From assembly GCA_051941275.1 (NCBI GenBank), contig JAVEBF010000011.1:1-59274 (forward strand): 59,274 nt of DNA. The letters run 5' to 3'. Shown piece after piece: positions 5,808 through 30,384 of this stretch; position 1 is the first letter of the stretch; each line of letters starts with the position of its first letter. The position numbers and the translations under genes were made by a program. Below the pieces are notes generated by a model, which ran no database searches, had not been told where the DNA came from, and saw only the letters and a list, made by a program, of their open reading frames with translations. This DNA is from Dirinaria sp. TL-2023a (taxonomy: Eukaryota).

Positions 5808-8800
5808 TCAGGAAACCACCTGTACAAGCAGAGGACAACTCTGATACCACTCCTCAAAACTAGCAAGCACCATACCCGGCTGATCCGCCACCAGATGATC
5901 CGTCAGCTCTTCCTCTCCGCTCCCAGGCGATACCGTCCCTAGCGGCGGTTGTTCATCCCAGCCCGCAAGCTTTGTCCAAACACTCACCAAATCCCTCGCG
6001 ATCTGACTGTTCACACCCGACCAAGCACTTTGCACTTTTGTCCACTGACTGCCATCCGTGGTCGGCGGAGCGGGAAGGCCGCCGGTCTGCTCTACAGGCG
6101 TTGGACGCAGGTGCGGTCGCTCGTCGAGAGCGGAGGGGTTGGGGGGAAGTAAGGGAGAGGATTTGCCTGTTGTTTCAATGTATAAGCCTCATTCATCGAG
6201 CCTTCACCCCTGCACAAAATCAAAACAGACTTACCACTCGGATTATTGCTCCCGTCCTGGAAAACTCCCTCCGACATCGCCGTAACAGCGTTGAACTCCG
6301 GCAGCACATTCTCTGGGTCAGGAAGCACTGGCGGAGGCGCAGTGAAAGTAAATCCTATGAGATGCGAATGCGTGGTGCCTGAAGCGTCAGGAGGGTTGAG
6401 GAGGGAGGATATATTATTGCTTTTGGATGCGATGGGGTCTTGATTGGGGTCGTCTGTCACACATCTTTGCGTCAATTCTCCAGTCACGCGATTTCGAAGG
6501 GAGGAAAATCAAGTGGCAACTTACACTGCGTCCAAAGCGCATCCGGCAAATTCTTCGTGCAGGCGCTTACGGTCCATGGTTTGTCTTTATCACTGGCAAC
6601 ATCGGTTGGAGGAACAGGCGATACAATGCTAACCGTCAAGAGTGAAGTGCAAGGACTGGTCAACTGCATCGGCCTCGTATAAATCGGTGGACTCGCCGCT
6701 GCAGGATCATTCGCGGCCCCTGCACTCTGTCTCCAACTCTGCATGATCACACCATCGCCCCAACTCAAATCATCAATCGGAAACTTGCATTCAATTCTGA
6801 AACTCACACCACCAGCCCGAACAGTCCAAATATCCCCCGTCTGCCCCTGGCCGCTCGTGATCTTTTCCGTCGCGGCGCCGGCAACAAGTGTCGGGACAAT
6901 CAGCGCCGAGGAGTTTCCTGTAGACGTAAGGTTGGTTGGAGGACGAGTCTGTCTCACCAACTCGAGGAAATCAGTCCAGTTGAGGGGGGTGGGCGCGTTA
7001 TTCTGATTGCCAAAGTAGATTGAGAAGTTATGGATCTTCAGATCAACATGGACGACGCCGCCGAAGGGCGGGCCGGAAAGGTTGAGCACCGCGGAGATAT
7101 CGGCGTGGATGTTGATGTGGATCAGACCGATGTCGCATTCAAAGCCGCAGCTAGATAGAGCGTCAGCACGATCCCTTCTGCAGCCAGACAAACTCGGCAC
7201 AGAGCACATACGTGACGGAAACACCAATCTCTGCTTGGAAGAAGAAAGGCTTGAAGTTGATCAGGAAAGATGCCCAGGCTCGGAAACTACAATACCAAGT
7301 CAGCTCTTAATCCCGCGTTTGAGAGCTCCGAAAGGGTCGAAAGAACATACGTCGCGTAGATCGGCCCGGCGTTGAAAGTCGCAACGAGTTGTCCACCACC
7401 CATACAAGCCTTTGGAGTGATTGCAAAATACCCCTGGCCGGTGACGGTCAAGACGTTGCTCAAGTTCCAATTGATTCCCACTCGAGGGACGACAGGGTAG
7501 TAGCTCGGGGGTTTGTATGCCGGATGGTAGCCACCTACTGTGAAGACCCAATCTCCTAGATCGCGGCAAGTTGCGCAGATCAGTAGCAGCAACCTTGGGC
7601 TGTCGTTATGGGCGAAGTGAACTCACCTGCATGGGGAGAGGGACCAAACCAGTAGCAAAGCGCAAAGCCTCCGACTAGATGGCAATCTGCTCGCATCAGA
7701 ATCACGACCTGAGAAGCCAAACTATATGGCTAACATACCCGGGTAGAGCACAAACGAATTCGGAGTCAGCTGCGCCTGGCAAGTCAAGCTCCCACCGGTA
7801 ATATCCAACGCTGCGACAACACCCAATTCGGCATACAGGAACATCTCATTCCTGTTCTTGACATGCGGCGGCATACTTGCTGATGCAATCCCAACAATCG
7901 CCACGGTAATATCTGATGCGCTGAATTGAACTAGCGCCGCGGCGTCCATGGAGATGACCTGCACTGCGTCAAGTTTGAAACCAAAAGCGAGCCACACGGA
8001 GTCCTGTTCGACTGAAACGAAGCGGGAGAAGTGCGTCAGTGTTTCCATTGGGTCATTGGATGCTGTGACGCCTTGAACAAGGGGAAAGTTGAGGACGTCT
8101 GCTGCATTTGGAGTTCGAATGCTATAATTATATCCTGTCGCCAACTGTCAGCGAACAAAGTCCGCCGCCTGGTTCCAATGAATCGTGGAGACGTTACCAA
8201 AACCTAAGGGAAAACCCTTGTCAGCTTCTAATCATGATGCGAAATTGGGCTTGCGAGGCACATACCAACTTCGACGCCCGAAATCTCCGCAAACTCCAGG
8301 GTCAACAGCGGCCCATCAAACCTGCCAAAAATGAAGACCGACTTCAGATCCGATGAATACGTATGCTGATATTCTCCGACAGCAAGAAGCGAGTAAGGAT
8401 CGATGCTAATCGCAAGCCCCCCCTTGTAGGCCTCGTACGCTGGTGTGCTATCGATCTGGAAGACGCCCGAGATCAAGACAGGAGGAGAATTGAAGTATAC
8501 GGACATGCCAGACAGTGCAATATCAAAGTCAGTGATAACGAGGTTTTTTAACTCGTTCAGGTTGAATCTGGAGAGGGGCATTCCGACGCCAAACTGCGTT
8601 TCAAATCATGTCAGCGCTGATGACAGAATCGGGAGGGATAATCTCACGCCCGTAACTGTCAGCTGTATCGGACCGAGTGCAACGGTCGCATCGAGCAACA
8701 TATAAAGGTATCCATTTTTTGTTTGCAGACCGATCTACGACAATTTAGTGCATTAGTCAGAGCTTCTACCTTGATTTGACCTACGTTGTGAATGGTCAAA

Positions 8801-11800
8801 GGACCAATTGATCGACTCAAAGGAGCTTTGGTGCTGCCAGAATCCTGCTGAACTGCTGGACCGGCTGCTGTATTATCATCGGCAATGCCCATCATAGCAG
8901 TTGCGGTGAAGCGGGCAGCGGTTGTAGTCTTTGACTTTTTGCTGTTCTTGGCAGCAGGGATATTTCTCGTATTGGTCTGTTTCACGCGCGATATCGTGGT
9001 TGAGGGTTTCGATGCAGATGATATTTCCGGAGTGGCAGTCAAGCTTGGTGTTGCTGCCATCAGCATGGCTTGTGGAGCCACCGGAGGCGCACCGCCCTTT
9101 CCGAAGAGGTGGTCGAGGATGACATTTCCGTTCGCCTGCACAAGGAAATGATGCCCAGCAAGCAAGACGTAGGGATTTGCATTTACCGAGGAGGCATTCC
9201 CTGGCGAATTGTTTTGAAGACTGGATTGTGTGTTCTTGAACGGGATGGAGTTGTCAGCAGACATGGTACTGTTGATAAGGGAAATATCAGAGAGAGTCAA
9301 GCCGGCGGTCTGCGCTGTATTGTCCACCGTCGAGTCTCCGATCCAGATGTAATCAATCGCATCCACCGGCTGTGGGATCGGTCCCACCACAGGAACACCG
9401 GGCACAGTTGGCAAACGATCGAGCAAGACACGAATCACCCGCTTGAAACCAGGCGGCGGCGTCAAAGCCGATGCTGCGGATCGAGCACCTTGGAGCTGGA
9501 TGTAGGTGAACGACAACGTGCCATTGGCGGTACTGATGGCGATCTGGATCCAGAATATGGTTTCTTTATCTGGTTCTTTGGTGATGGACAGCGATACCGG
9601 AGGTTGCGAACCAGCAACAGGAGTCGCAGCAGGAATTTCGATATTGGCCACGAACTGCACATCTGCCAAGGTATTCAAAACATCTTGATCAACACCAAGA
9701 GCCTGGATCAAGTCGTACAGCGTCGACGACTGGCTCATGTGCGACCCCAACGACGCACGGAATGTCCATGAACTTTGCCCTGGACTGGAGCCATGGAAAT
9801 ACTGATAGCTCAAATCTAGCTCGAAGGGGCCCACTCTCAAAATTCCTGTGACAAAAAGGTTTGCGTCTCCAGTCGAATAGTCCCAGATGACTTCAAGCTC
9901 AGGTATCTCCAGAGTGCCAAGGATATCCATGACTGCATCACTGGCATCAGAGTCGAACAGGTTGTAGAGGGTGGCGAAGGAAACGTTGACGGCAGAGCCA
10001 GTCACCTGCCACGAGCTGGACAGACCTTGATCAATGTACTCAACAGAAACAGTCAATTGAGAAGCCAAGGTGGCCGGGAAGTCCCGAGGTATGAGCATGA
10101 CGCTGGTGGACAAGAGAACATCGGTTCCAGCGCCCTTGCTGTATTGCAAGGAAAAATCCAGATCGCCTAGCACAATTCGGGGCACCCCAGAGCCGCTAGT
10201 CAGCGGGAGAGACTGCAGTGTCCCAGAGAAGAGATATCGCAACTGTTTACTGCTGTCGTAGGATGCCGTGAGTGTCAGCTCATAAAATGTCGGGGACAGG
10301 TTCATGCCTCCCGGTGGAGGCGTCACATCATTTCCACAAAAGTCCGCAAAATCAACAGCGCCTGTCGGTTGCCCAAGCGGAGTGTATCGATCATAAGGCT
10401 CGATATATGGGAGCAAGGCATATGTGCTCACGTCGGGTGCGATGGAGTTCCAGAGACGAGCCGTGATCGACGGACCTGGCCAATCGAGCTCGAGCGAAAA
10501 GATGGTTTTGTTGTAGACGCTAACTTCAAACAAGATGGTTGCCGCAAGGAGGGAGAAGCCGGAGGCTGAGCCAGGATTACCGAGCACCAACGTCACATTT
10601 CGCACGGCGAAGCTGATATTCGAGGAATTGGGAAGAAGCGGCGTAGGATCGATGGATCTGTCGTTGCTAGCACTCGAATTTGACAGTACGCTGACGAGCC
10701 AGCCTTGGATCTGAGACCAGGTATAACTGTTGTTGAACTCCAATACGATGCTTGTCTTATTGTATTCAAACTTGACCCAAGCACTGATGCTCAGGCTGTC
10801 AAAATTCGATCCGAGGGTGATTTGAGTCTCCAGCCCGCATTGCGAAGTCAAATCTCGCTGGACGAAGTCGCTTGGACACTCTGCTTTGCTCAACACTACA
10901 ATTGCTGTGTTGCTTAAAGTAATGGATCCTAGAAACGAAAAATTGGTCTGAAACGTCGTCGCGAAGGCGGGATCGGTGACAGCAAAACGAAGTCGAAGCC
11001 ATGTAGAGTAAAGCACGTCGGGCTTGAAGGTCAAAGAGCTCCTGCTTCCAAGCGATGTATCGATCGTTGTCGTCAGACTACTGACTGGATCAAAGCCTGG
11101 GAGACTGAAGCCACCCGTCGTCCCAATGGGCAGGTACGTCATGCCGAAATACGATATAATCTGACCGACCGTCAACTGTGCTTGACTTGTGCTCTGAAGA
11201 CCCAGAGTCATGAGCCCATAGTCTGTCACCATAGCATCGCCGAGAGCAGGAGGAGTGGCGACGGCGGTGGCACCCATGCTGATTGTGCTGGAAGCGTCGG
11301 ATGAGAACGTGAGACTGATGGGTGTGTCAGCGACGACACCGAGGTTCAACTGGACGTTGACGGCTGTTACGCGAGCAAAAGCATTCGCGGTGTCAATGTA
11401 TCCAACTAGACTGGCTTGCTGAATTCCCAACCTGTTGTAGTATAACCTTTGAAACCACTCGTCGGCCGCGTGAACTTTTGCTGAAACAGGTGCTGGCGAA
11501 GGCGGAGGCGTGTTGTTAGGGCCGGTTGCTGGTTGCTTCCATGGGGTTGCCAAGATGATGTAGCCATTGTTCAGGTTGGCTATCCAGTCACTGAATGCAT
11601 TCGATGTGGTTGCCGGTGAAAGCGGTGCTTGGATGGTGTCAGGCGTAAAGTGGGCGAAATCCGAGCCACACAGATAAAACGGCGATGCCGGGGGGGAAGC
11701 GTTTGGACTATCTGCGGCAGTCACTGTGGCGGAGGTTACAACCTTTGATTGAAGCGGTGCAACAGTCTTGTTTGCTTGAGTTGTTGTCCGTATGGGGATT

Positions 11801-14709
11801 GTAGCTCCAGCGATCGGTGCTGATGGAGTGGAAGCGACAAGTACGTGCTTCGGCGCGGCGGATGGGCTTGATTGAGTTGCAGGCTGAATCTGAACAAAAT
11901 CCTTCTGCACAGGCATCGCATCGCCCTTGACTTCTGGCATCTCCGCGTCTGAGTCTTCCGGCGTTGCATCGGAGCCTTGATTGTCTGACAGAATCTCGGC
12001 GTCGTTTTGCGAGTCAGGGACTCCGATATTGATACTAGGATCATAGCCACCCTCTTCATCAATGTCCGTGACGTCGAAATTGGCAGAGAGCATTTCGACG
12101 TCCTCCTGCTTGAGCGCAACGTCTGAGGCCTTGAGTTTCTTTTCTCGGTTCTCCGGCGTATCTCCCTTGGTACCGTCTTCAATGGCCCTCTTTTTCTTAT
12201 TCTCAGGCGTGTCATCGGTCACAGTCTGGGTGGGAGCACCTGGGGGGGGATCGGTCTTCGGAGGCGGAGCTGGAGTTGGATTGGGGTCCTTTTCGTAGAT
12301 AGCCCATTCGTGAAGCTTCGTGCCGGTGGCGCGAAGCTCCAGGAATCTCGCAGTCGTCCCGTTCATGACACACAGCAGGGACTGGTTGGCGGCTGGCAGT
12401 TCTGTTTGCAGTTGTCCGCAAATCTTCTCCCAAAAAATTTTCAAGGCGACCACCATGGCCTTTACTCTTTTCTTCTCCCAAGCCGTTTTGGCCGCAGCGT
12501 CTTCTGTCTTGTTGCCTGTCGCATCAGGTTTAGGCATCGAGGCGTCCAAAATCCAGAACTTGTTCAGAGGGTTATCGGCCACTGTTCCGCTGTACAAATT
12601 CAGCAGCTGCTGAATGAAGACCTGGTGGTCATCCGTCAGGGTGGTAGGCAGGACGTCTGGGAGCTTGTTGAAGTTATCACAGCTAAAGCCATCGTCTCGC
12701 ACCATCCACACCGGCCACACAAATCCGTACACACGCATCCATCGCGGTTTGATCGAGAGGTACAACGCATGTAGATACATGAGTATTTCGGGCCCTGTAT
12801 GATGAGTAGAGTCATTATCATGAAATCATTGAGGAAGGTACGAGATTTGACGACGTGCTTGCAGGATCACAAAAGTGCAGACATCGATACAACGTTATTC
12901 TCAAATGCATCCAACTAGGCGGCCACTGCATATTGCAATGCCTGACCGACTGTTGAGGATGACGACAGTAAGGTACTAAAGCAACGCCATGACGTGACTT
13001 ACGCGGGTGTCCTGAGCAAAATCCGGTGTCAGCATTGTCTCGTTCGCATGACTCTTCGGAAAAGTATTTACCGTGATGATTTTTCTCCCCTGCGGGCGTA
13101 ATTACAACATTCGGTAGCAAAGTATTCAAAAGCAAAGACGACGTGGAGCCGGCTCCCCCGTGACTGCCATCGTCAGGGTTCACTCACTCTCCTGATTCTA
13201 GCAGCACTCACTGACTAATCTTCATGAATGTCGTCTTGGGATCAGAATTAGGTGCAGCTAAGAGCCAAGTGGCAATACCCCCTTCAACGTCCCAGAAAGC
13301 ATCACCAGCCTAGAACACAGTCATCAGATCCACCGTGAAAGACCAAGAATCGTGCTTCAGAGAGCAGACAGGCCGTGAGACCTGCCATGGCAGAACACCT
13401 ACCATAAAGTGCCACAATTTCCAAGACGTCCCTTCGGGTGCGTTGTCAAGAGTATCGGTCGTTGAACTCAGAATCAAGCAAGCAATTGACGGGCAGTTCA
13501 TGGCTGCCGCGGTATTGCGGACACCCGTATATCGCTTCCCTAAAGACACAGACCTCTCGTCCACAATCCGTACAATCGGATGATGCACAAAGTTGTCGTT
13601 GGTTTTGGGTGGTGTTGGCTTGACAGGGGCTGCGACCGTGGCCGATGCAGCCAAAGGCGTGTTCCCAAGGATGACCTGATCGCCGGCAACGATGAACATG
13701 CGCGGCCCCATTGACTTTGTCAAAGAATGCGCTTTCATCAGCTGCCCCGGATTCTTGATGTTCGCGTATGTGCCCGCCGGCAATGGCTTGTTGTAGAAGA
13801 CGTCCACTCCCAGGTATTCGGAATAGTCGGCAACCACCTTGCAGAGATCAAAGAACTTAAATCCCTTCTTCGTAGCCTTGCCGCTCCCGATCTTGTAGGT
13901 GTAGTAGCCAAGCAGCCCCAGCGTGTTTGGGCCCCCAGGTGTGTAGCTGCCGCCGCCTCCTCCGCCGATGCCATGATTGCAAATGAAAGTCTTGCCACTC
14001 ATACTCACCTTGGGTCTGCTGTCTGATTTATCCGTGCCCAGGCGAAAGTTATCGTTGCGGTTAGTGTCAATGTACGGCATGTAGAAGGTTGTCAACAATG
14101 TCGCAGGCGCGATGGCGGTTGGGTCAGGCGCTGGGCCCGGGACAGGAGCAGCCCTGAAGATAGTCGTCGGTTCCCCACCGGCATACTTGAAGAGAGGCAC
14201 TTGGAGACCTGCTACCGTCACTGCTAGCTGCTTGATCTGGTCTTTCTTGCTGGTCTCGGAAGCTGTTTTCAATGCGTTGAGATCATCACGAGTATTTAGG
14301 TAATTCGATATGCTTTCCTGAAGGAGGTCTTTGAGGCCTCCCCAATGGTCGATGTCCCAATGCGTAAGAATCACAGAATCAAATTGCAGCTTGCCCTTGG
14401 TCTTGGTAGGGGCGAAGGTATAGCTGTTCTCAATTCTTTCGATGCAAGCTTTGATAGGCTCCTTGCCCGTGGACAATCCGCCGTCAATCAAGACAGCTCG
14501 ATAGATGACGGGCCATTCTGCTGAGTCCGTGCTGTCGTCCTTTGCTGCGGAATCATCCACGAGCAGATGGATTGCAGCGTCGCCAATAGTGACCTAGATT
14601 ATCATCAGCAATGCGGACATTTCTCGCTGGAGCAAGCCTGCAATGCTGGGTGTCTTTGAACGTGTCTTACATTGATATGATGACTATGGACAGATAGTTT
14701 GGTCGCCAT
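5808..14709 (-). CDS. Cluster gene A: giant protein (~2,600 aa) with N-terminal ComEC/Rec2-like MBL-fold metallo-hydrolase, acidic/Pro-rich linker, beta-rich middle region and C-terminal DUF6603-like region
   Basis: Hand splicing gives one open frame. Exons: 14709-14671 (MATKLSVHSHHIN), 14593-13403 (VTIGDAAIHLL..LIDGG..THWDIDHWGG..MNCPSIA..HFM), 13309-13212 (AGDAFW..MKIS), 13163-13072 (HHGG..NHH), 13011-13003 (GHP), 12794-8785, then about 10 more exons to the stop at 5808. All junctions checked are GT..AG. C-terminal motifs GPLTIHNIGL, LDATVALGP, GFGYN, YAELG, CHLVGGFA, GDWVFTVGGYHP and YFAITPKACMGGG are recalled as DUF6603 features. Confidence 0.85.
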
Positions 14710-15762
14710 TGCGACTTTTTCGCTGTCTTCTTGATCAGCTCATCTACGTGTAGGAGAAACACATCGTTGTCAATCAATGGCGTGCTCCTGTGTGCTGGAT
14801 TCAACTCCCAACATAGCCTCAAGATATGCAAGTATCATAGTTTGTATTACCCGGCCTCTCTATCTCGCCTGAGAGTGCGTCCGTTTTAAGAGACTATGCC
14901 CGAGATGGAGGAATGCTGCCATAGTCTTTGCAAGCAAAGACGGCGTTATTGATGAGGAAAAACCAAGGCAAGTCTAGCCGTGGCAGCGCTTTTCATCACG
15001 CTCAAAAGCCACCAGAAATCGAAGCGTGAAGCACAGATACGGTCATAGATGTTCAATCAGACCCGTTAGCGCTCTCGTATATGCAGGTGTGTCGGCCGCA
15101 ATGCGACGCCGGCTTTGATGGCTCGAGCGATCTTGATGCTCCCGACAGATTCCTTCCGTACCGCATCTCGCAGAATGATCTAGACCATCGGATTTCACGT
15201 GTGGCGCATTGAACATCTTGCTAGGGTCAATTTGGTATCATCACTACTACTTGAGGGTTATGACAAGTCATAGGCGTAGGCGCCAGCAGCCAATGGGTCT
15301 ACCCGTTGCCATTACTTCGTGTTTCAGTCTTCGAAGCGTTCGTGGATACGAGATGTGATCTTGGCGACAGATTCCTTGTCACGTTTCTCCGTGATGCTGA
15401 AGACCGTAAACTCTGCACATGACACTCAGTGGCGAGATGACATTTTGACTGTCGACGCTCTGAAAGCAAGAAAAAAGCTATTCGAAGTTTGCGTAGAGAG
15501 AAATTGCAACCCTAACCCTGACCACTTGGCAGTGCTAACTAAGGTACCTTAATAATTCTGATCCAATTGGTGAGTTCGGGCTTCTTCAATGCCCTTCAAT
15601 GCCAATGGATGAAACCGCGTTCAGCCTCCCAGCAAAAGTGTAGATACTACGATTACAACACAACAAAGCTTGCTGCATTGTCACCGAATCAATACGTCAA
15701 ACTGATGGGCTGTGAGCTTGCAGGAATACGATCGCTAGAGTCTTGCGTCACGGTCTCCAGCG

Positions 15763-18700
15763 TCACTTCCTCTGCAGATTGATTTGCTGAACAGCCGAGC
15801 CTTGATTAACCCATTTGGTCTTTGCCCCATCTGCATAGAAACCATAGACCTCCGTCACGGTGATAAAGACCAAGGGCGGGAGCAAAGGCGTTCCCACGGT
15901 GATGTCTTTCCCCATGGGCCCGGCAATCTCCACCTCGTTCAACTTGAAACTCAACTGCGTGTTCTGCACCACGGGAATCGACAGATTGAGCGTGCGAGGA
16001 ATGACGCGCAGGTTTAGATACGCTGGTTGAACATCCATGTGCACCACCCACCGCTGGTTCGAGAGCATTCGAGCAGACGAGCCAGGTGACGAATTCACCG
16101 GGACGAGCCCTAATCCGCCCAAGATGTCATTCTGGATGCTCTTGCGGAGGGCTGGGTCGCCAATCGGGATTCGAAAATCGATCTCATGCAGCCTCAATGT
16201 CTGATTCACGATGATGGTGGGACTGTTGAGCACGATGCTGAAGACAATATCAGGCGGAAATGGATTCTTGGTATCGACGTATCGAGGCGGCGCCAGGTTG
16301 GGGAAAGTTTTGGTGTAGACAAATGTCGATGGGTAGATAGCGTATTGGAACTGGGATACCTGGGGCAGCGGAGGTAGATTCGGGAACGGGTTCGAGGATA
16401 TCGCACCGCCAGGCGTTGCCATACCCAGATTGAGTGCTGGTATACCTGAAGCGCTGCTTGAAGGCGCTGCCGTTGCTGGAGAGTTCGAAGCGGCTGACGT
16501 TGTCAACACAGCTGGGCTCTTGGATGCAAGCTCTGTACTAGTTGCAGAGGTATCAATAGGCATGGTTTTCCGCTGGAGAGCAGCCGCACTCGTCAAAGTA
16601 TTCAAAGCCTGGGGCGTCTTGGCAAGGGACTGTGCTTGGATTGTGGCAGAGCTGGTGGGCAAAGGTTTGGGCAGCTGCTGCTTCACGACAGGTACGCTTG
16701 ATGTCGGGCCGGATACGACTTGAGGGGGGCGAGCAGACTGGTCTGCGATTGCTAAATGAGTGCCTGCCTCGACTGGAGGGGCAACGGACGAAATGGTATC
16801 CACGTAGAGCTGTCTCGGCAGGGTTATACCAGCTGGTGTCGTCACCGTAATGGTCGAAGGCAAGACTTCCAGGTACTTCACTGTGTCGTTTAGCTGGATG
16901 GCCGTCATGCTGCTTGTGAGCAGTGGTTTGACCGGAGGACCCCATTCGGCCGGCATTTCCTTGACCAGTCCATCCGAGCTACCGAACAGCTCCTTTTCGA
17001 TCTCAGCGAAGTTGAGGCATCGTGAAGTCCAGTCGTAGGCCAATGAAGTGTTATTGATCCTGGCAAACTTGTGAGGCTCGCCAACTTCATGCAAGGCGTC
17101 ATTCGCTGCAGCTTGAGATGCCGCCGTTCTATAAACCTTCCGAAACATAAACTCAATTGCGCTAGCATCAAGACTGTCCCCGGCACTAAAACACTGCTGG
17201 TGCACGGGCTGAGTGAAGCGTATCGACGAAATCTTGCCGCTGTCTGGAAGGCGGTCAAGCAGGACCATAAGAACATCACCGGCCACTCGCTTCTGCATAA
17301 GGATCGGCGCCAGTCCACTCTTTGGTCCTTCCGGTTCATGTATAGTCAGTTGAAGGTCGGGGAAGACCTTCACCACGGCCGAACGAAGGAAGAAGCCATA
17401 GAGCGGGACTTGAGGCAAATGACCGCTGCCAAGCGGGGTGGAAAGGTACCGGTTGATTTCAACCTTGATACTCTGACGAATAGCGTCGTCATCACGCGAG
17501 AGATGATTGGCCACGCTCAAGGCGCCGTCGATCATACAATCCAGCCATGTTGGATCAATATGAAAGAATCGGATAGACTCGGCGGGGAGATGAGCTGGAT
17601 CGGTGATGAGATAGTGAAGCGGGATGCCATCGAGATACAACTTGTCCATAATCCAGTTGAACAGGAATGCCCAATCGGTTGAGACGGGTGAACTCAAATC
17701 GTTAAAAGGGACAGCGGCTGCAGGGACAGTCGCTGCCATCATCACTCTGGCAGTGGACGCTGGACGGGCTTGCTCCTTCAAAGGAGCTGCTGAAGCTAGA
17801 TGAGCCATGCTGCTCTGAACGCCTTCGACATATGCACTTTTCCACCCCGGGTCTTTGATATCTCGGCGTGTCTTGGCTACCTTTTTGCCGGCGTCGATCC
17901 ACCGATCCTTCAAAGAAGGCGGCTCACTTTGGCCCTCGAAAGGCTTCGATAGCTGTACAAGCGTCTTCGCGGTGGCTGGAAGGGCGTTTAGAGCTTGAAC
18001 TTTACTTGTTGCTGTGACCTGTGGGTCGGCGACGGCCCTGTCAGCTGCCGCTGCACCGGCGGTGTGGGCTCTTCCACGGATCCGCATGAGTGCGGCTACA
18101 AACGCCATGTCTGCAGACGCAAGCGTCTTGCCGAATTGGAAGGCAGACGAATACGATACGTCCATGATTCCGACCCGTGAATCCAGGATCTGGAAGTCTT
18201 GGCCATTGTTGGAAAATGAAGGAAGAGCTGTCGGTCGCGCGACAATGACCGGAGCCAGTGGCGACCGAGTGAAAGCTACGGTAGGCTGTCCTGGACCAGT
18301 CCGATAACGGACCAAGGAATATCCGTCAAAGAAGCGTTCCTTGAGTACCGACTGAAGCGTCGATTGTTCCGCGGCGTCGGTGATATTGTGGAGAGCGTTG
18401 CTGGACAGCTGAGCGAGGACCGAATCGGAGTGACGCAGCAAAGAGCTTTGGGTCTCGATTTGCTCGCCTATGGCTCTCATGGCTACGGCAAACATCAGTA
18501 ATTGCACAAGGTCTAGAGGGTTTCACCTGCAGTCATACCATCCACAAAATTGACACTCAATGGGGGCTGGCAGAGATACGTCCAAGAGTAAAGAGAGACG
18601 AGCGCGACTAGATCGTTTGCCGGCGGCATGGTCATGTTTTCAATGTACTCGAGATTCAGGATATGAACCGCCTGAGTCCGTGGCGCCGTATTTTGAGCGA

Positions 18701-19685
18701 TATCGGTGGGACCGGTGCGGAGAGAATGGAGCACACTGAAAAGTCCAGTATCTTCGACACCTGAATCCGCCATACCCTGGGTATTGATATTGCGGACGTG
18801 CTGTTCCGGTCAGGAAGCAGACCATGGATTCATGAAGGAGTGTGGACTTACAGCACAGTATCGGAATTGGCTCACGTCTAGCTTGGCGGCATCTGTTCGA
18901 GATTGGAAAAGACGACAAAAGAGGGAGCCGTTCATGAAGATGACCTGCACGGGCGTGTTATCATTCTGCATGTCCGCCCAGTCACCGTTAGTTCGAAAGG
19001 GCGGTATATGAACCGGCGTCGCGCTCTTCGATGACGGCGAATCCAATTGTAGATATTGTGAAAGTGGCATTGTGATAGTCGCAGTCGTCGACTGAACCAC
19101 GGCCGAGCCATCGGAAGGGGTGTAGACGGCCCCCGAGCCAGCCAGCTGATCTGATGTCAAGCGAAGCTCTTGTGCAGTGTCAGGGCCATTGATATCGAAG
19201 GGCAAAGCGGCCAGCCAAGGAACCACATCGTCATCATCAAAGTCGTTGTTGGCTACGGCCACAGCGCGTTCCCATGGGGTATGAGGGTCGTTGAAGACAA
19301 TGTGAGGCAGGATCATGGGCTGGTCTGCGTGGCCTTGAGGCGGATAGGTCGAATGAACGGCATTAGGATCGAGGGCGAAACGTGGAGCGACAACATTGAA
19401 GCGTTGAGTACCCGGATTATCGGGGGGACTGCTGATGTTGTTGGTACTGGCGGGAAAAGGCCCTTGGGGAACCTGGACCTGCTGATTGATGTTGATCGTG
19501 TAGACTCCGCCCTCAAGAGCAGGTTTGTAGTAGTTGATCAGCTGGACATCGCCCGATGCTGCGAGAGGAAGAGCCGTCTCTTCAGCGCTCTCGGCCTGAG
19601 AGCTCGCCGTCGCCAGGTTCTGCGCCTGATTGCGGATCACCAGGGTTCGTGGCCGGACGCGCGTGGTGCTCATAGTCGTCGACAT
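15763..19685 (-). CDS. Cluster gene B: uncharacterised ~1,270-aa protein (conserved core, A/P/S/T linker, C-terminal beta-rich domain)
   Basis: Three exons from ORFs 18810..19685, 18513..18773 and 15763..18507, joined by GTAAGT..ACAG (YCA|HVRNINT) and GTATGA..GTAG (FVD|AMRAIG). Motifs YYKPALEGGVYTI, APRFALD, LPHIVFNDPHTPWER, PWLA, AHVR, LVSLYSW, RSPLAP, DVSYSSAFQFGKTLA, IPLHYLI..LPAESIRFFHIDPTWLDCMIDGALS, GFFLRSAVV. Confidence 0.85.
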
Positions 19686-20119: not shown

Positions 20120-20410
20120 TGAGGTATAGGGTACGAGGTTACAGAACTTACAGGTACCTTAGCTTGCCGAGTACGAAGGGGAGAGAGTTACTCCGTACAT
20201 GATACTACTAAGATACTAAAGTACCTACCGTATTAGAAGCTTTCTATCAATCGCTTAGACCCATGGTAAGATGATCTAAGATAAGGTACCTAAGGTAGTT
20301 CCTGTTCCGTGCTCGAGCCGTGGTACCTTTTGGAGCTTAAGGTACCTTACCTTACCTTACTAGTATAAGCCTTAAGGTAGGTACTCCCCTAACCCTAAGT
20401 AAAGTATTTT
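20120..20410. promoter_or_regulatory. GGTACC-palindrome-rich segment with a telobox (CCCTAACCCTAA, 20387..20398) in the divergent B/C intergenic region
   Basis: AGGTACCTTA at ~20152, TAAGGTACCTAA at 20282, TGGTACCTT at 20321, TAAGGTACCTTA at 20338..20349, and (CCTTA)3. A regulatory role is inferred from position only. Confidence 0.3.
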
Positions 20411-20948
20411 CTTTCTCCCTTAGCTCTGCAGCCTCGGTACAAGTTGCCTCATTAGCCGCCATACACGAGGGCTGACACATTCGAGTGACGCTTTCCATCG
20501 ACGGCGTGATCTAGTTCTTCATGTCTTGCACCCTCGCATCCTCAGTAATATATCTGCGACTTTCTACTGAGCACGATATGCAAGCCACTATCACCTCGTA
20601 TTTGCCCTTGCAAATTTTACGCTGCCTGAAGGGTCTCGACCCCAAGCCCGCCCGCCAGCCAGCCAGCCAGCCAGTTGTGTCCCAAGATACACCAAGAACG
20701 ACAACCCAATGCAGCGCAACAGGAAGCTGCGGAAATATGCGACGATGGCAGATGCCGCACTGACTTGGCTCGATGAGGCGCTATCTTCTGGCATCTCTTT
20801 GAGATCGATGAAAACTTTCCCCGCATGATGGTCGTGAGCAGGACAAGAGCTTGTACTTCATACTATCCACTCCGCAGCTCTGGGGACTCATGGAGTGAAA
20901 AAGCATACAAGACTCGGTTCAAAGCAAAGGGTACCATAGCTCTCCGTC

Positions 20949-23900
20949 ATGTCTGGTTCTAGCTCTGGTGGCTCCACAACTGCTTCCCAAGCGACAGTGC
21001 TTGTTCCCTTGAAACTCAACGCTTTTGCCTTGACCCCCGGCACATGTGCGAATACCAACAAGTACTCAATTGCTCCCATTGCCCAGCCAAACTACACGTT
21101 TCTCAGGTTGCACGACAATCTCATTGTGCCGGATATCCTCGACCATGTTGACCTCCATCAAGTCTCTCCGGCAAACCTGAATCCGCGCTTGACAGATCTT
21201 GGGACTGGCCAAACGCGTCAGAACCGGTTGGGTGTCTATATTCACTGGACTTTACCTCCCCTCTACCGTTCTGGGTCTGCTGCTGCTCCTACCGCATCAG
21301 GGACCGCCGATTTGGCTCAAGCAGATCGAAAGCTTCGTCAAGGGTTCCCGGCTTCCTCAGCAGCTGCCCCGAGCTTTGGAGCAGCAACAGATTACAGTAC
21401 TCCAGACTTCAGACCCGTACCCAATCGATGGTGAGTCAATTGGCCGACTTGTTCTCTCAATGCTCATCATCAGCAGGCTGGTTATTCGACATATCAATGC
21501 CGCGTCGATTGCACCAGCTGGAACCAAAATTCCAGAGTTCCAGTCCTGGGTCATTGAATCTGATCGCCTCAGGAACATCAACGATGACGACCTCACTGGT
21601 GCGGACCTTGAAGTCGACGTCTCGCCTTCGACCAACCCGGTCTTGTTGGATCCGTCCAGCGGCACTGTCGTAGAAGGACAGGCCGAAGCCTTCATCGGTC
21701 AATGCACCCCTGCAGCTTCATGGAGCGAGAGTGCCGCGAGTGCAGGAAGTCATATCGACCTGACGGTCATGACCTCCTCCAACCCGCTGTTTGCCGACTA
21801 TCAGCCCCACAACAGTAATGTCTTCAGCTTCGTGGACAATTTCAGCTACACCACTGCATCGGGCTCAACAGGCTATCTCACCAAGGCTATTTGTGACTAT
21901 CAGGTCATTGGGTGGCACTCGAGTAGCGATCATGATCCCTTCACAACCGATCCCAGAGTGTCTTCTCCACCACAGGCAAACCGTCTCCAGGACTGCCAAT
22001 TGGCTCTCAAGAATGGTGATTCGGCCTCCGCCATCGCTTGGTTGAACTCGAATGCTGCGACACGCGTCTTGTGCCATGCTACCATGTACGATGTTGCCTA
22101 TGACGTCGGGAGCGTCCCGCCGACGGTATTGGCAAATACTGCAGGGCAGCTGCTCCAGCAGAGTCAGTCAATCGCTGTCGGTGTCACTCCTCTTGATGTA
22201 AGTATGCTCTGAGGCGGAGCTGCGATCCCCATCACGTCACAGACTTGCATTCCAGCCGCACCCATACTATTCCTATGCCTTCCCACCCCTGAAGAGCAGC
22301 ACATCGTGAATCTCGCTTACCTAGACCCTCAGGCGCTCATAGCTTATTGCCGTGCACATGAGACGACGGACGCGACCAACTTGGCAACGCTTGAGCAGGA
22401 TCTGCTTCGCATACAAACGCTCTTGCTGAGCGGAGAGAGCGACGATGTTGATGCTCTCCAAGCGGCTGCAGACGAGAGCTTCGAACAAGCCTTTACCCGA
22501 AGCGATGGCGGCACGGTATGGCACTTTCATCAGGAAAGCGATCCGAGCAGTGTACCTAGTACAGACCAGGTGACAGCAATCAGGACTCTGAATCAAAATC
22601 AGAAGGTCTTCGATAGTGCTGCGCGGGAAACGGCGAGCAAAAGATGGGAGCTGTTTGCGCAGTGGTGGCTTTGGGGTGAGGCTTACCATATTGTGCTTAT
22701 GGGCGTGCAAATGATTAACTCAAATGGCGACAGTGTCCGGATTCGGTCAAAGCCAGAGTACTGCGACGTTCCAGTCGAATGTAGCCAGTGTAGCACAGAG
22801 ACTTTCCGACCTGACGGGTGCGGCAGGGAGACAGATGGAGCTCGCCAATAATATCAACTCAGCCAAGAGCTCTCTCTCCAATTTAGCTACTAATCAGCAG
22901 CCGCAACAGGGAACCGACGATCGTTTCTATCAGCGTAAAGATCCCACCGTTCTTTTCGGGAATATTCAAGCAGGTTTCGAGAGTGATTTCAACACTGCGA
23001 CTAAAGTACGTCTGCAGGATCAAGGTGTGTTTCCTCTTTGAAAGTTCCCTCGAATCCGGCAATCAACACAGTAATCCGACGACTCTGACAAGCCCATCAG
23101 TCGTCACTCCCCCAGCTGGTGCGCTCGTTACTGGCTGGGCTACGCTTCCAACCACTCTTACTTCCATCATTCCCAAGCTTCCTGTATCGCTGCAGTCAAG
23201 CGCTCAGGCTTTGGCCATGGAGTTCTATCAACTCAGAACCAGCAATAATGTGACATCAGCAACGCTGCCGCAGGTGTTACCCTGGTTCCACGATGAGGCC
23301 GCGCGTTCTGAAAGCCGTGGTCGAGATCGGTGGCAAGGCACGCAGCCATGGATGCCTCTGTTCATCGAGTATGAAGCAGTGTACTACCACATTCCATTTT
23401 CCAAGTGGAAGCTCAAGGAAGCTCCGATGCTTTCCAACTGGGGGGCGTCTGTACTTCAGTAAGTCCTTCGTGATTATCACCTGATATCAAAGCTTGACCT
23501 TTTGCAGCTACGGATTCAATGACGATGTCAGCAAAAGTTCCACAGTCGACGACAGGACTATTTCCGGCCGGGTCATCCTGGAGCCTCAGGCCGCTGCGAC
23601 TTTGAGCAACACCCTCACTCAAATTCTCCAAAACACCAACGAGGGCGACCTCGAGAATCTCTACGGAATGCCAAAGTCAGAACAAGCGAGTCTCCTGGCC
23701 AACATCAGTCAGATTGAGTTCGCCTCGTCAGGAATGTATAATCTTACTTCAGATCTTCTTACGTTGCAGCAAGGTGGACAGCATGTCAAGCCGACCATCC
23801 GTCTGACAAACTCCTCACCTATAGCAGTCCAAGCAGCTACGACGGCGGCTTCTGCTATTGGCTTCACGACTACATTAATGCAGGCCATGGACACGCAGAC

Positions 23901-25745
23901 TACAATGACGCCCTACGGAGATTCTGTCGCCATGGACACGGATGCACCGCCCATGAAGCTTGTCACGCATGGCCGTTGGTTCCCCAACTTCAAAGATAGA
24001 GAGCAGGAGCTGACCAAACGTTTTTAGAGCTCATGTTCACCAAACTCAATGTCATCGACAAGTTTGGTCAAGCGATTTCGGCCATCAGCCCTGCGCCCTT
24101 GCCTTACGGCGCTCTGGTCCCGACCATCAGTCCATGCCTCTCCGATACCTACTTCCCCGGCACCATCGGAAATGTGGACCCTGCTTCGGCTACTGCTCGA
24201 GCAAATTGCATCATCTCTCAAGGCAACAACAAGTCTTGCCCATTCATCAATCTTCCTCCAGGCATCAATCAGCCAGCTAGGCTGAATGCCAAATTTGTCT
24301 CCAACGTCAACGGAAGCTGGACAACGACCAGTGAGTGGGAGGTGAGCCATCGTTTGTCAGTTAATGGTCCGGGAATGACACTGACGACCATTAGAATCCA
24401 ATCTGGGGTTGGCTCGTTGTAAATTTTGCCGGTAAGAGTTAATTCCACATTGTGTCTGCAACGCTAAAGGTCCCCTTCCTCCACAGAACAAGGTCTTCAA
24501 GTCTTCCTTGCGGACGGCACTTTCTACCGCGAGGTGCGTTTCGGCGGCAGCGCGGGAATCCAGACCACGGCGAGATGGCTTCCTTATGATCCTCCAAAAA
24601 ATCTGCCCAACACCTCGCAGCTAGACTTCCTAATCCAACAATTGAGTGGTCTGCCATACCTTAGCGCCTTCGTAGACATGATCCTGCAGAGCACCGCGAG
24701 TAATCAAACGGCCGCTCCAGACTCATATGCGACTTTCTCCTCGGCCATCATCGGCAAACCCCTGGCGCTCGTAAATATTGGCTACTCCCTCGAACTGGCT
24801 GGCCCCGAGAACAAGAACTGGAGTACTGTCAACTCTCAAGGCCCTGACCTGCACCTGCTCCAGCCAGATGAGACTCCCTTTCCCCCAGGAGCATCAGGCG
24901 GCTACAGCTTTCCCGTCAAGCTTGGCGATGCCGACCGCACCTTTGATGGCCTTATAGGCTACTTTAACAGCGCTCTGGCAACCCAAGGCGGCGCAGCATC
25001 CGCGCCTACCCCCGCAGGACAATCCGATCTCAACCTCTCCTCGATCTACACTTACTATCCCTCAACCAATATCCCTGCCCCAGCCGGCGATCCTCGTGTA
25101 CTGATCTCCTCCACTGCGCAGAATTTCCCGCTTTTCACACCTTACTACCTCCCTGCCGGCAAAGCAGGCGATCCTATCCAAGACCAAGCGAAAAACATGC
25201 AAGTCTTTGGCGCAATCATGGACCCCTTTCTCCCCATTCATGCCTACAGCGCCATTCTACCCAACAAAGCCCTGAAACTCCCGGCATATACCGTTCAAGA
25301 AGCTCTCAAGAACATCAACGCGTTCTGGCGCATCGGTCCCCTGCTCGTCGCCGCCGATGTCCCTGCGGCTTATGATCCCGCTCGCGCGATGGATAGCAAC
25401 TCCGTAGGCGTCGTCGCCAGCAGCAGCAGCAGCACCCAGACAGCAGATCCAACAGCAACGAAACCGAAAATCGCGCTTCCCCTCCCTCCTCCCGCCGCCG
25501 CCGCCGACGGCGCAGATGCCATCTATCGCTACCTGCAGCCGTACGTGGTACCCACCATCGATCCGACAACGGGCGCGAACCTGGGGGACAGAACTGAGTA
25601 TAATGTCTTTGGTATCTCAGGGGATGCTGCGGCAAAAGGGGACGCGGTGCAGGCGAGGCTGGCTGATGGGCCGTATACGGCCGTGGAGGGGTATGCGCAG
25701 ATTGTGAGGAGGACTGCTACTGCTGCTGCTGCTATATCTTCGTAA
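20949..25745 (+). CDS. Cluster gene C: uncharacterised ~1,400-aa protein
   Basis: About 9 exons joined by GT..AG introns keep one frame (PNRW|LVIR, PLD|ALIAY, HG|QLMFTKLNVIDKFGQ, EWE|NPIWGWLVVNFA|EQGLQVF). Motifs LVPLKLNAF, GVYIHWTLP, WVIESD, FADYQPHNSNVFSFVD, YQVIGW, PWMPLFIEYE, GKPLALV, FPVKLGD..DGLIGYF, MDPFLPIHAYSAILP, FWRIGPLL. Confidence 0.85.
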
Positions 25746-26368: not shown

Positions 26369-27554
26369 CTACAACCTCGCTACGTCAACGCTAGTCGCCG
26401 CCGCCAACTCAATACTGAGTGCTACATCCTTTCTTAGTAATCTTGTCTATAAGCAGCGGCAGCAAGGCAACTGGACCTACCACCCAATTCAAAAGTTCCG
26501 GGCTTTCCCCGAGCTGAACACATGCCGGCAACAATCTGCGCAGCAGACCATATGTCATACCATGATGCTCGTACATTAGGACCAGAAGTTGTGATCGCCA
26601 AGAAGCATTTTTGGTCGTCTGTGTTGTGCGATGTGGCTGTTAGGCTCGAAATGTATCGGTCGACCGGTTTGGTTTCCCACTCACCAGAGTCCACGACGTA
26701 CGGAAGCTCCACGTCGACGTGATCTTTCCCGAATTCTCGTGGCGTTCGATCAACCTCCATCGTATCCAATATGGTCCGGCATGAATCCACAAACGAGGAT
26801 GGGAGCCTTGTTCGACCGTGGCATTGCGCGAGCTGCCCTCCTCGTCTCACGAGCACAGCTACGCCGCCGTCGCCTATTGGTCATTCGAATCAGTCATGCA
26901 GCTTGAGACGACTGCTTCCGCCACCACGTGCACATGGTTCAGACTTACCCAGTCCCTTTGCTATCCCACCGAAGCTCGGGATCTTCCTGTATATGCAATT
27001 CTGCACCACCGCTCTGGCGCCTATGGTAACCTCTTTCTCACTAGCCTCTGCTGACACGCGGCTCGGGTCCACGACAACTTCAATCACGCAGTTGCCATCC
27101 GCTGACAACGTGGTCAGTGCGTCGCCACTAGCTTGCTGGTTGAGGAGCATATACGGCTAACCCATCTTTGGGGCAGGTCAAAATCATACACCATTTCCCT
27201 ACCTCTGGGTCCCCAGGTCTTCAGGATACTGTCGTGTTCGTTCAGGGCCCAGAGCGCTTGTCCACAACCAATAGCACTCAGACCGCTTCCTAAATCTGGT
27301 ATACACCGATAGTTTACGTCCATCAATGTGCCGGTCGAAGATAATGTGCTATTGGTATTACGAGATGGGACTGACATCGTTCGAGCTGTACTGTTATTCC
27401 AAAAATCTTTCAGCTGCGATTTTGAGACGTTCGCTGCCAAAACTTGGGATACAGCAGCTGTCGTTGCATGGGCGAAGGCTGCATTCAAAAATACCACACC
27501 AGTACAAAGAAATAGACAACCAAGTCGAATCAAGGCAAAATTCGATCTATCCAT
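26369..27554 (-). CDS. Secreted Cys-rich protein with two tandem homologous domains (effector-like)
   Basis: Signal peptide MDRSNFALIRLGCLFLCTGVVFLNAAFA. Five exons via GT..AG introns (WVS|PDGNCVI, KGL|GDGGVAV, VDS|DDQKC, ELG|ALSIEL); stop at 26369. The pattern C-x(9-10)-C...LP..(D)..C...A..V...C...G occurs twice. Confidence 0.75.
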
Positions 27555-29865: not shown

Positions 29866-30384
29866 ATGTTGTACATAATCACAATTTGCATTCTCCTTGC
29901 CTGTCATGGCAACGCCATCGCCGCGAAACCTACGAAGCTAACTCCTCGTGGCGCCTCTCGCAATGGGACCCTGCTACGCCTGCCTACCCATCCAGACATC
30001 CCTGAATGTCACTCGGTTAGCAGCCTGTCAACCACCAAGGGCTTTGACCGATATAGTTGCCACGTTGCTGCCCAGCAGGCGTGTTATAAGCTGACAAGTC
30101 CGTTCTACTTCCGCTGGCATGCTCGGGACAAGTGGATATGGATGGCTGAACCCCCAGGCTGTGCTGTGGGATATTATCTTCCAGCAAAAGCGCCGCTTCC
30201 GGATCTTAGACGGTGCGAAGTGTCTTTCATCGAGATAATCGAAAGTTGTGTGGTCGACTTGCATGCCAATGTCGGGTCAATCAATGTTGCTTCGCTGCCA
30301 AGCTCTACACAGCATGGGAAACCGATGACTGCTGGTCACGAGATGTACCTCGTAGCGCCGCAGGTATTGACATCGAAGGACTAG
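29866..30384 (+). CDS. Small secreted Cys-rich protein (~172 aa, 6 Cys in mature part)
   Basis: ATG at 29866 gives signal peptide MLYIITICILLACHGNAIA. Intronless ORF with YSCHVAAQQAC, GCAVG, RRC..F..I..SCV. Confidence 0.8.
   Translation: MLYIITICILLACHGNAIAAKPTKLTPRGASRNGTLLRLPTHPDIPECHSVSSLSTTKGFDRYSCHVAAQQACYKLTSPFYFRWHARDKWIWMAEPPGCAVGYYLPAKAPLPDLRRCEVSFIEIIESCVVDLHANVGSINVASLPSSTQHGKPMTAGHEMYLVAPQVLTSKD

What the first reader, a model, noticed from the sequence alone, without database searches (positions are those of the whole stretch)
12781..14709. Hidden ComEC/Rec2-like MBL-fold nuclease domain fused to the N-terminus of gene A
Seen: the ORF track shows only fragments, but five small introns join the full motif series HINVTIGDAAI, LIDGG, THWDIDHWGG, MNCPSIACLI, FMAGDA, KISHHGG and P.VVITPAG..NHHGHPR, running in frame into the 1,373-aa ORF. 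Established: this order, with HxDxDH in place of HxHxDH, is typical of ComEC/Rec2-type MBL hydrolases, which include nucleases. The expected metal ligands are present. An acidic, Pro-rich linker (PTPAPPPKTDPPPG...DIDEEGG...EDSDAE) separates it from the scaffold. Inference: a tethered and possibly exchangeable enzymatic effector, as in polymorphic toxins.
Basis: partly seen in the sequence, partly recalled or inferred. Interest (0 to 1): 0.75.

Follow-up and report, generated by a model that had tools for sequence, protein, structure and literature searches.

The report
Fungal nuclease fused to unknown carrier
This fungal gene, hidden by introns, joins a probable DNA-cutting enzyme to a giant protein of unknown function, and it belongs to an unstudied gene cluster shared with bacteria, where the same position holds a separate, interchangeable enzyme.

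Summary
Five GT-AG introns join a complete ComEC/Pce-type metallo-beta-lactamase (MBL) domain to a 2,599-aa DUF6603 protein. An annotated orthologue matches all five junctions and a relative lacking introns 2-5 matches those four. All ComEC-type metal ligands are present; a homologue's model matches ComEC (Z 19.8) and Pce (Z 18.3). The fusion is normal in fungi: 45 of 46 full-length homologues carry this MBL (59), and MBL and scaffold trees agree, so it is not swapped like a polymorphic toxin there. Exchange is seen in bacteria: the gene just upstream of DUF6603 is a separate MBL in 8 of 56 loci, and an EEP-family enzyme, peptidase or phosphatase in others. Five of those MBLs group with the fungal clade (98/94), apart from ComEC and Avs1a-like proteins. 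Best reading: fungi took up the cassette and fixed a DNase cargo by fusion; nuclear-localisation-like basic clusters follow it. Activity, expression and target are untested. DUF6603 and PF20248 gave no paper. This scan noted the bacterial cassette and its exchangeable front enzyme before, on other DNA (37); I found no note on the fungal form.

The parts
14671..14709 (-). Gene A exon 1 (start codon, first MBL strand, aa 1-13)
   Evidence: aligns with homologue N-termini; same intron position seen in L056
13403..14593 (-). Gene A exon 2: GD, DGG, motif II H91-W-D93-I-D95-H96 (14362-14345), two large insertions, N379 (13498)
   Evidence: Pfam Lactamase_B over cut-off; residues mapped
13212..13309 (-). 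Gene A exon 3: bridging D413 (AGDA) and KIS
   Evidence: junction reproduced by P0258 and L056
13072..13163 (-). Gene A exon 4: H443-H444-G-G; G446 stands where ComEC has a substrate-contacting Ser
   Evidence: PMC12455585 passages
13003..13011 (-). Gene A exon 5, 9 nt (G-H475-P)
12795..13002 (-). Intron 5, 208 nt, phase 1, directly after His-Pro; position conserved in the family
   Evidence: 77 of 81 short database hits with the His-Pro motif have S/R/G/C next, the residues of N|GT codons (12 of 93 short hits lacked the motif)
12289..12794 (-). Start of exon 6: last MBL helix and strand (RPEILMYL..YGFVWP) and a helical subdomain, aa 477-645
   Evidence: matching elements H345-357 and E369-371 in the homologue model
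11688..12288 (-). Low-complexity linker aa 646-846 (Pro-rich, basic, acidic); 28% identical in the orthologue
12130..12198 (-). Bipartite nuclear-localisation-like basic cluster, aa 676-698
   Evidence: own regular expression from a recalled consensus; function not tested
8785..11687 (-). Beta-rich N-terminal scaffold of gene A (rest of exon 6)
   Evidence: no Pfam match; homologous to fungal DUF6603 proteins
6796..8746 (-). DUF6603 (PF20248) domain spread over small exons
5808..14709 (-). Whole gene A, 16 exons, 2,599 aa, open frame
15763..19685 (-). Gene B of the cassette, 3 exons, 1,271 aa, intact
   Evidence: matches a profile of bacterial B proteins at E 3e-85; no Pfam, NCBIfam or PADLOC match
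20949..25745 (+). Gene C of the cassette, 9 exons, 1,423 aa, intact, divergent from B
   Evidence: homology to other C proteins; pieces scanned gave no family

Best explanation
Gene A is one spliced gene whose first 645 residues are a two-metal phosphodiesterase of the ComEC/Pce branch, most likely a DNase, carried on a giant beta-sheet scaffold (DUF6603) that works with genes B and C. Shown: the splice model, the ligand set, the fold of a homologue, the cluster, the bacterial counterparts. Inferred: fungi acquired a bacterial cassette whose front gene was an MBL of this clade, fused it to the scaffold and kept the fusion. Inferred and weaker: the enzyme is cargo of an A-B-C machine, is held quiet by its insertions or by the scaffold, is freed at the variable linker and enters a nucleus (a competitor's or the cell's own) by the basic clusters to cut DNA. 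My odds: fusion real 0.93; DNA as substrate 0.6; cargo of a release or delivery machine 0.45.
For: Junctions reproduced by orthologue P0258 (all five) and by L056, which reads through the positions of introns 2-5 in one frame. P0078 has the same 2,256 aa in a metagenome call and in a genome annotation. A paralogue in the same assembly has the same fusion with other introns. 45 of 46 homologues of 2,100 aa or more carry the MBL; 50 of 57 MBL hits of 500 aa or more carry the scaffold. Ligands H-D-D-H, N, D, H-H are shared with ComEC, which PMC8579336 (passages) defines by Asp in motif II and Asn in motif III and shows to be a Mn-dependent nuclease. Best solved matches are ComEC by sequence (E 3e-10) and by fold (Z 19.8, rmsd 3.2, 239 aligned). 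Bacterial slot: MBL in 8 of 56 loci, at most 32 nt from the DUF6603 start; EEP, peptidases and PhoD-like enzymes in others. Tree: 17 fungal rows 100/99, with 5 slot MBLs and L104 98/94. Bipartite basic pattern in 20 of 78 linkers against 3.5 shuffled and 1 of 691 scaffold windows. A fungal sister form without the scaffold carries a SAP DNA-binding domain (L054, E 2e-11). Bacterial fourth genes carry collar, LamG, propeller or S74 domains.
Against: No transcript, protein or activity data. Pce, which is not a nuclease, is nearly as good a fold match (Z 18.3). The Ser after HHG that aids ComEC nuclease activity (PMC12455585 passages) is Gly in gene A and Ala in 81 of 166 family members counted. 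46 of 78 linkers lack even the short basic pattern, related sequences are not independent, and the pattern is my own. Three of the 8 slot MBLs lie outside the fungal sister group, and the tree is unrooted with 228 columns. No bacterial MBL-DUF6603 fusion was seen in 56 loci. The folded protein was a homologue (P0061), 29% identical to exon 2, not gene A. No protease or fibre-like fourth gene was identified in the fungal cluster. MBL-less or degenerate fungal forms exist (P0091, P0095, P0102, P0110, P0114), so the enzyme may be dispensable, though some may be split annotations.
Confidence: 0.45

Rival explanations
1. The domain is a phosphodiesterase for a non-nucleic-acid substrate (phosphocholine on walls, a phospholipid head group or a nucleotide messenger), and the scaffold is a groove or surface that presents that substrate.
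For: Pce is the second fold match (Z 18.3, rmsd 3.8, 241 aligned). The bacterial slot also holds PhoD-like and EEP enzymes, which include non-nucleases. The scaffold model is a long antiparallel beta-meander.
Against: Motif II has Asp as in ComEC, where Pce has His (PMC8579336 passages). Basic clusters and a SAP domain in relatives point to DNA. Related defence MBLs were inactive on a phosphocholine ester (10.1101/2025.09.03.673762 passages).
Confidence: 0.22
2. It is a self-directed cell-death or immune nuclease: a gated pro-nuclease like Avs1a, HamM or CanC, opened by a host protease after an alarm, with A-B-C as sensor rather than carrier.
For: An insertion lies before the motif III Asn, at the same place as in Avs1a-like proteins (median 27 aa in fungi, 66 in gene A, 47 in Avs1a-like rows, 7 in ComEC), and is the low-confidence loop of the model (248-255). 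No export signal by hydropathy. L054 and L058 carry a papain/OTU-like motif after the MBL (by eye). An NLR-like gene lies 15 kb beyond gene C.
Against: Fungal MBLs do not group with the Avs1a/LmuA-like clade. Their LmuA scores (24-67 bits) equal those of ComEC controls (50-60 bits), against 200-274 for true members. No linked protease was found. In bacteria proteases replace the MBL in the slot rather than pair with it.
Confidence: 0.22
3. It is a fungal polymorphic toxin with a frequently swapped N-terminal domain.
For: P0093 has a fungal-type scaffold (54% to P0061 in DUF6603) but a different MBL. The MBL diverges faster than DUF6603 (29% against 47% mean identity).
Against: 45 of 46 carry one clade, the trees are congruent, orthologue conservation is even. 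No unrelated enzyme was found on a fungal scaffold among the proteins examined. No conserved immunity gene was seen.
Confidence: 0.07
4. The MBL is a separate small gene and the fusion is a prediction artefact.
For: No RNA evidence. Intron 5 is long and holds two other AG sites that give 487- or 517-aa products. Some public models are split (P0201/P0260).
Against: Those products lose the last helix and strand and score lower. L056 has no intron there. A member of P0201's cluster is a 2,172-aa protein.
Confidence: 0.04

Closest known systems
ComEC beta-lactamase-like domain (PDB 9IC4; PMC8579336, PMC12455585)
   Same: Fold (Z 19.8), HxDxDH motif II, Asn in motif III, bridging Asp, HHG and GHP motifs.
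   Different: No competence or OB domain, no membrane segment; motif II to Asn spans 288 aa in gene A against a median of 67; HW instead of HP; Gly for the Ser after HHG; fused to DUF6603; eukaryotic and spliced.
Pce/CbpE phosphorylcholine esterase (PDB 2BIB, 1WRA)
   Same: Fold (Z 18.3) and most ligands.
   Different: Pce has His in motif II where this has Asp; sequence match weak (E 0.24); no choline-binding repeats.
Protease-gated MBL nucleases of anti-phage systems (Avs1a, HamM, CanC, LmuA-MBL; PMC12799240, 10.1101/2025.11.14.688446, 10.1101/2025.09.03.673762)
   Same: Same ligand set; insertions relative to ComEC, one at the same place.
   Different: Separate clade; profile scores no better than ComEC controls; no linked protease or sensor ATPase found.
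Bacterial DUF6603 cassettes
   Same: DUF6603 giant with B and C partners; an MBL of the sister clade directly in front.
   Different: In bacteria the enzyme is a separate, exchangeable gene in an operon that has a fourth, fibre-like gene; in fungi it is fused, fixed, spliced, and gene order varies.
Polymorphic toxin systems (PMC3482391)
   Same: An enzyme on a large carrier; varied nucleases and peptidases in the bacterial form.
   Different: Enzyme is N-terminal; not variable in fungi; no immunity gene seen; 'lactamase' does not occur in the held part of that paper.

Membership tests
MBL fold superfamily | Motif II HxH/DxDH with a two-sheet alpha-beta-beta-alpha fold | tested here: met
   Pfam over cut-off; homologue model pLDDT 83, pTM 0.88; all top fold matches are MBLs
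ComEC/Pce branch of MBLs | Asp in motif II, Asn in motif III, bridging Asp, HHG, GHP | tested here: met
   H91, D93, D95, H96, N379, D413, H443, H444, H475; definition from PMC8579336 passages
ComEC protein | Competence membrane domain and full-length family score | tested here: not met
   TIGR00361 14 bits for exon 2 and at most 25 for homologues against a cut-off of 190; no hydrophobic 19-mer above 1.9 in gene A
ComEC-type nuclease | Metal-dependent cleavage of DNA | not testable with these tools
   needs an assay
Gated MBL pro-nucleases (Avs1a/HamM/LmuA) | Membership of that clade by profile and tree | tested here: not met
   scores at ComEC background; separate clade; none of my Avs1a-like rows passes the NCBIfam cut-off
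Gated MBL pro-nucleases (Avs1a/HamM/LmuA) | Insertions that block the active site | tested here: inconclusive
Gated MBL pro-nucleases (Avs1a/HamM/LmuA) | Linked activating protease | tested here: inconclusive
   no protease family found in the parts of A, B and C scanned; B and C were not folded
DUF6603 family (PF20248) | Profile match over cut-off | tested here: met
   four exon pieces over the cut-off
Polymorphic toxin system | Toxin domain varies among close relatives | tested here: not met
   in fungi; the bacterial slot does vary
Polymorphic toxin system | Adjacent small immunity gene | tested here: inconclusive
   no frame of 100 aa or more between A and B; extra ORFs in other fungal loci share no family; small spliced genes could be missed
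Tc, Rhs or contractile injection systems | RHS/YD repeats, TcA/TcB or sheath, tube and baseplate families | tested here: inconclusive
   no such Pfam or NCBIfam hit in A, B or C; fold searches of the scaffold's C-terminal 1,100 aa gave only generic beta-sheet matches (TM at most 0.15)

The most novel reading that the evidence does not exclude
A, B and C form an undescribed protein-release or delivery machine shared by bacteria and fungi. Bacteria load it with interchangeable nucleases, peptidases and phosphatases; fungi took it over by gene transfer, welded a DNase to it and added nuclear-targeting signals, which would make it a fungal weapon or death switch aimed at eukaryotic nuclei, built from proteins with no known structure.
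Probability: 0.35. Interest if true: 0.88.

Novelty: new variant of a known kind. Interest (0 to 1): 0.68.

Why it matters
The enzyme is of a known kind, but its carrier is not: DUF6603 with partners B and C has no paper in the library searched, no family for B or C, and no specific fold match for the scaffold part modelled. The cassette is not rare: 830 proteins passed E 1e-20 in one search, names span many ascomycete genera and two basidiomycetes, and it occurs in 8, 15 and 8 of 401 sampled genomes in three bacterial phyla. The fused MBL gives the first simple handle on it: a predictable active site, an in-vitro assay, and culturable non-pathogenic fungi that carry it. If it is a nuclease cargo, fungi have a protein-based conflict system of bacterial origin that has gone unnoticed because introns and the DUF label hide it.

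Tried and rejected
RNA runs: none was listed for 12300-14800, so no reads were laid. Homologue search with exon 2 among 696-2,000-aa proteins found nothing; full-length relatives are longer. LmuA/Avs1a profile hits first looked specific but ComEC controls score the same. Separate origin of the P0093 MBL: not shown. Gene B's C-terminal domain as a fused copy of the bacterial fourth gene's first domain: no profile support. A suspected frameshift in gene C near 22,700 was an intron. Scaffold fold searches gave only generic beta-meander matches with rmsd mostly 12-19 A; this excludes no family. ESM Atlas: no usable hit for a bacterial DUF6603 protein outside PF20248; MBL and ComEC/Rec2-labelled clusters for the fungal domain. 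Complex prediction of a bacterial slot MBL with the first 440 aa of its DUF6603 partner returned no verdict. Paper searches: DUF6603 0, PF20248 0; searches listed nothing on this system (listings only). Earlier-notes searches by place, by sequence and with fungal words returned nothing. The own genome was searched for further copies by protein and family only.

Full report
1. The observation. The window is fungal DNA with short introns. Ten more introns complete a 16-exon gene of 2,599 aa ending at 5808, with DUF6603 in the small 3' exons. Exon 2 passes the Pfam Lactamase_B cut-off. Against a profile built without the window's sequence, this model beat 7 alternatives (intron retention, two other acceptors in intron 5): 212.2 bits against 200.0 or less.

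2. Is the fusion real? No RNA run was listed, so the evidence is comparative. An annotated orthologue from another lichen fungus (P0258, 2,535 aa, Pfam PF20248 plus PF00753) has the same residues at all five junctions; a second (P0259) agrees at three, its model skipping exons 4-5. A metagenome contig of the same subclade (L056) reads through the positions of introns 2-5 in one frame, including the His-Pro-Arg-Pro-Glu junction; it is too short to show the scaffold. P0078 has the same length in a metagenome call and a genome annotation. The own assembly has a paralogue (G000:C507, product P0001) with the same fusion and different introns. Intron 5 is a family trait: of 93 short hits in the representative search, 81 had the His-Pro motif and 77 of these continue with a residue that an N|GT codon encodes. 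The last helix and strand of the fold lie beyond intron 5, so a stand-alone product would be incomplete.

3. The enzyme. A profile of 16 fungal N-termini finds ComEC beta-lactamase-like domains first in the PDB (E 3e-10). An AlphaFold2 model of homologue P0061 aa 1-386 (pLDDT 83, pTM 0.88) matches ComEC 9IC4 (Z 19.8) and Pce (Z 18.3), well above RNase Z and RNase J (13.7 or less). PMC8579336 (passages) defines the ComEC site by Asp in motif II and Asn in motif III and shows Mn-dependent phosphodiesterase and nuclease activity; gene A has H91, D93, D95, H96, N379, D413, H443, H444. Against a simple equation with ComEC: the Ser after HHG, implicated in substrate contact in PMC12455585 (passages), is Gly here and Ala in 81 of 166 members counted; and the domain has large insertions (motif II to Asn 288 aa, ComEC median 67). 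One insertion lies where protease-gated anti-phage MBL nucleases have an inhibitory loop (PMC12799240, 10.1101/2025.11.14.688446, 10.1101/2025.09.03.673762; passages). But the profile hits to LmuA and Avs1a are no stronger than those of ComEC controls, and the trees keep the fungal clade apart from both.

4. The cluster. Gene B (19685-15763, 1,271 aa) and gene C (20949-25745, 1,423 aa) are intact and match no family in the pieces scanned. Of 68 metagenome loci found with the MBL profile, 10 (L041-L050) have the scaffold directly downstream and 2 more have B or C nearby but end early; three fungal loci (L054, L058, L059) have no scaffold, four are too short to judge, and most of the rest are ComEC-like. 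A model of the C-terminal 1,102 aa of a homologous scaffold is a long antiparallel beta-meander (pLDDT 78, pTM 0.55) with only generic matches. Gene A has no hydrophobic stretch suggesting a signal peptide or membrane helix by a crude scan.

5. Is the enzyme exchangeable? In fungi, hardly. Of 120 proteins listed (of 830), 46 are 2,100 aa or longer and 45 carry this MBL; the other (P0093) carries a different MBL. Trees of MBL and DUF6603 for 30 proteins agree (Mantel r 0.57, p 0.0005; 6 of 7 strong splits shared, one conflict). In the orthologue the MBL is 69% identical, the scaffold 64%, DUF6603 77%, the linker 28%. In bacteria, yes. In 56 DUF6603 loci (23, 33; two lack upstream DNA, four are near-copies from Paenibacillus) the gene directly upstream is an MBL in 8, an EEP-family enzyme in 5 (two scanned, three near-copies of one of them), a peptidase in 6 (C39, M91-like, S8 twice, M64, M14), PhoD-like in 2, and GIY-YIG-like or DUF4135 in one each (the PhoD and GIY-YIG hits are below cut-off); the rest are non-enzymes, unassigned or absent. 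None had the MBL fused to DUF6603. Five of the 8 MBLs, from three phyla, group with the fungal clade and with L104 at 98/94; three do not (17 rows of the tree were dropped to make room).

6. Hints at DNA and the nucleus. The linker after the domain holds basic clusters: a bipartite pattern in 20 of 78 proteins (3.5 in shuffles, 1 of 691 scaffold windows), a short pattern in 32 of 78 (9.6 in shuffles); gene A has one at aa 676-698. The patterns are my own, from a recalled consensus, and more than half of the proteins lack them. In a scaffold-free fungal sister form the MBL is followed, across introns I did not model, by a SAP domain (L054).

7. Mechanism. Shown: a fused, conserved, apparently catalytically complete ComEC-type phosphodiesterase on an unknown scaffold in a three-gene cluster of bacterial kinship. 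Inferred: it is a DNase cargo, fixed by fusion after gene transfer, released at the linker and aimed at a nucleus (0.45). Rivals: a non-DNA phosphodiesterase (0.22), a self-directed gated death nuclease (0.22), a swapped polymorphic toxin (0.07), a separate gene (0.04). The direction of transfer rests on the fungal clade being one branch among diverse bacterial MBLs in an unrooted tree and on the operon structure in bacteria; it was not tested with a root.

8. Novelty. The fusion is visible in database annotations (P0006, P0258) but I found no paper: DUF6603 and PF20248 gave 0 hits in the library searched, and searches listed nothing on it; subscription journals are mostly missing and no supplements were read, so a table there could mention it. 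PMC3482391 (passages; first 300,000 characters held) has no 'lactamase'. This scan had noted the bacterial cassette in at least 8 genomes, but no fungal form. I class the finding as a new variant of a known enzyme kind on a carrier that may be new in kind. Interest 0.68.

Noticed in passing
L054:9929-13411, L058:8964-12453, L059: Fungal MBL of the same clade without DUF6603, followed by a papain/OTU-like motif (by eye) and, in L054, a SAP domain; a dynamin-like gene lies beside L054.
   Followed up: partly
L104:9959-15529: Low-GC, apparently bacterial 1,857-aa protein: MBL of the sister clade fused to a long beta-rich region with no Pfam match. A possible parallel fusion on another scaffold.
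   Followed up: partly
P0093: Fungal-type DUF6603 scaffold with a different MBL (canonical HxHxDH); possible replacement, origin not resolved.
   Followed up: partly
P0091, P0095, P0102, P0110, P0114: Fungal DUF6603 proteins with a degenerate MBL (ligands lost) or none.
   Followed up: no
L011, L147, L162-L166: Bacterial DUF6603 proteins of 3,000-3,500 aa with over 2,000 aa of unassigned N-terminal sequence.
   Followed up: no
L138-L140, L150-L153, L155-L159: A second cassette subtype: shorter DUF6603 protein followed by a gene that does not match my B profile.
   Followed up: no
window 40893-45671 (-): NLR-like gene: alpha/beta-hydrolase, NACHT-type and WD40 domains, 1,592 aa in one frame.
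   Followed up: no
window 52057-53271 (+), 47096-47818 (+): HNH_2 nuclease and fructosamine-kinase-like genes.
   Followed up: no
window 26400-36000: Several frames that look like small secreted Cys-containing proteins; those scanned had no Pfam match.
   Followed up: no
window 2058-4631 (+): 857-aa Ser/Thr-rich repeat frame with a hydrophobic C-terminus, like a wall-anchored protein; no Pfam match.
   Followed up: no
window 20130-20420 and 15500-15560: Short repeated palindrome-like words and telomere-like hexamers in the spacers on both sides of gene B.
   Followed up: no
window 8203-8198 and 13011-13003 (-): Micro-exons of 6 and 9 nt in gene A, which gene callers are likely to miss (P0259's model skips the 9-nt one).
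   Followed up: partly
G000:C507 (L006): Second cluster in the assembly: gene C homologue divergent from the MBL-DUF6603 gene, a 152-aa frame between them, no gene B on this 16-kb contig.
   Followed up: partly
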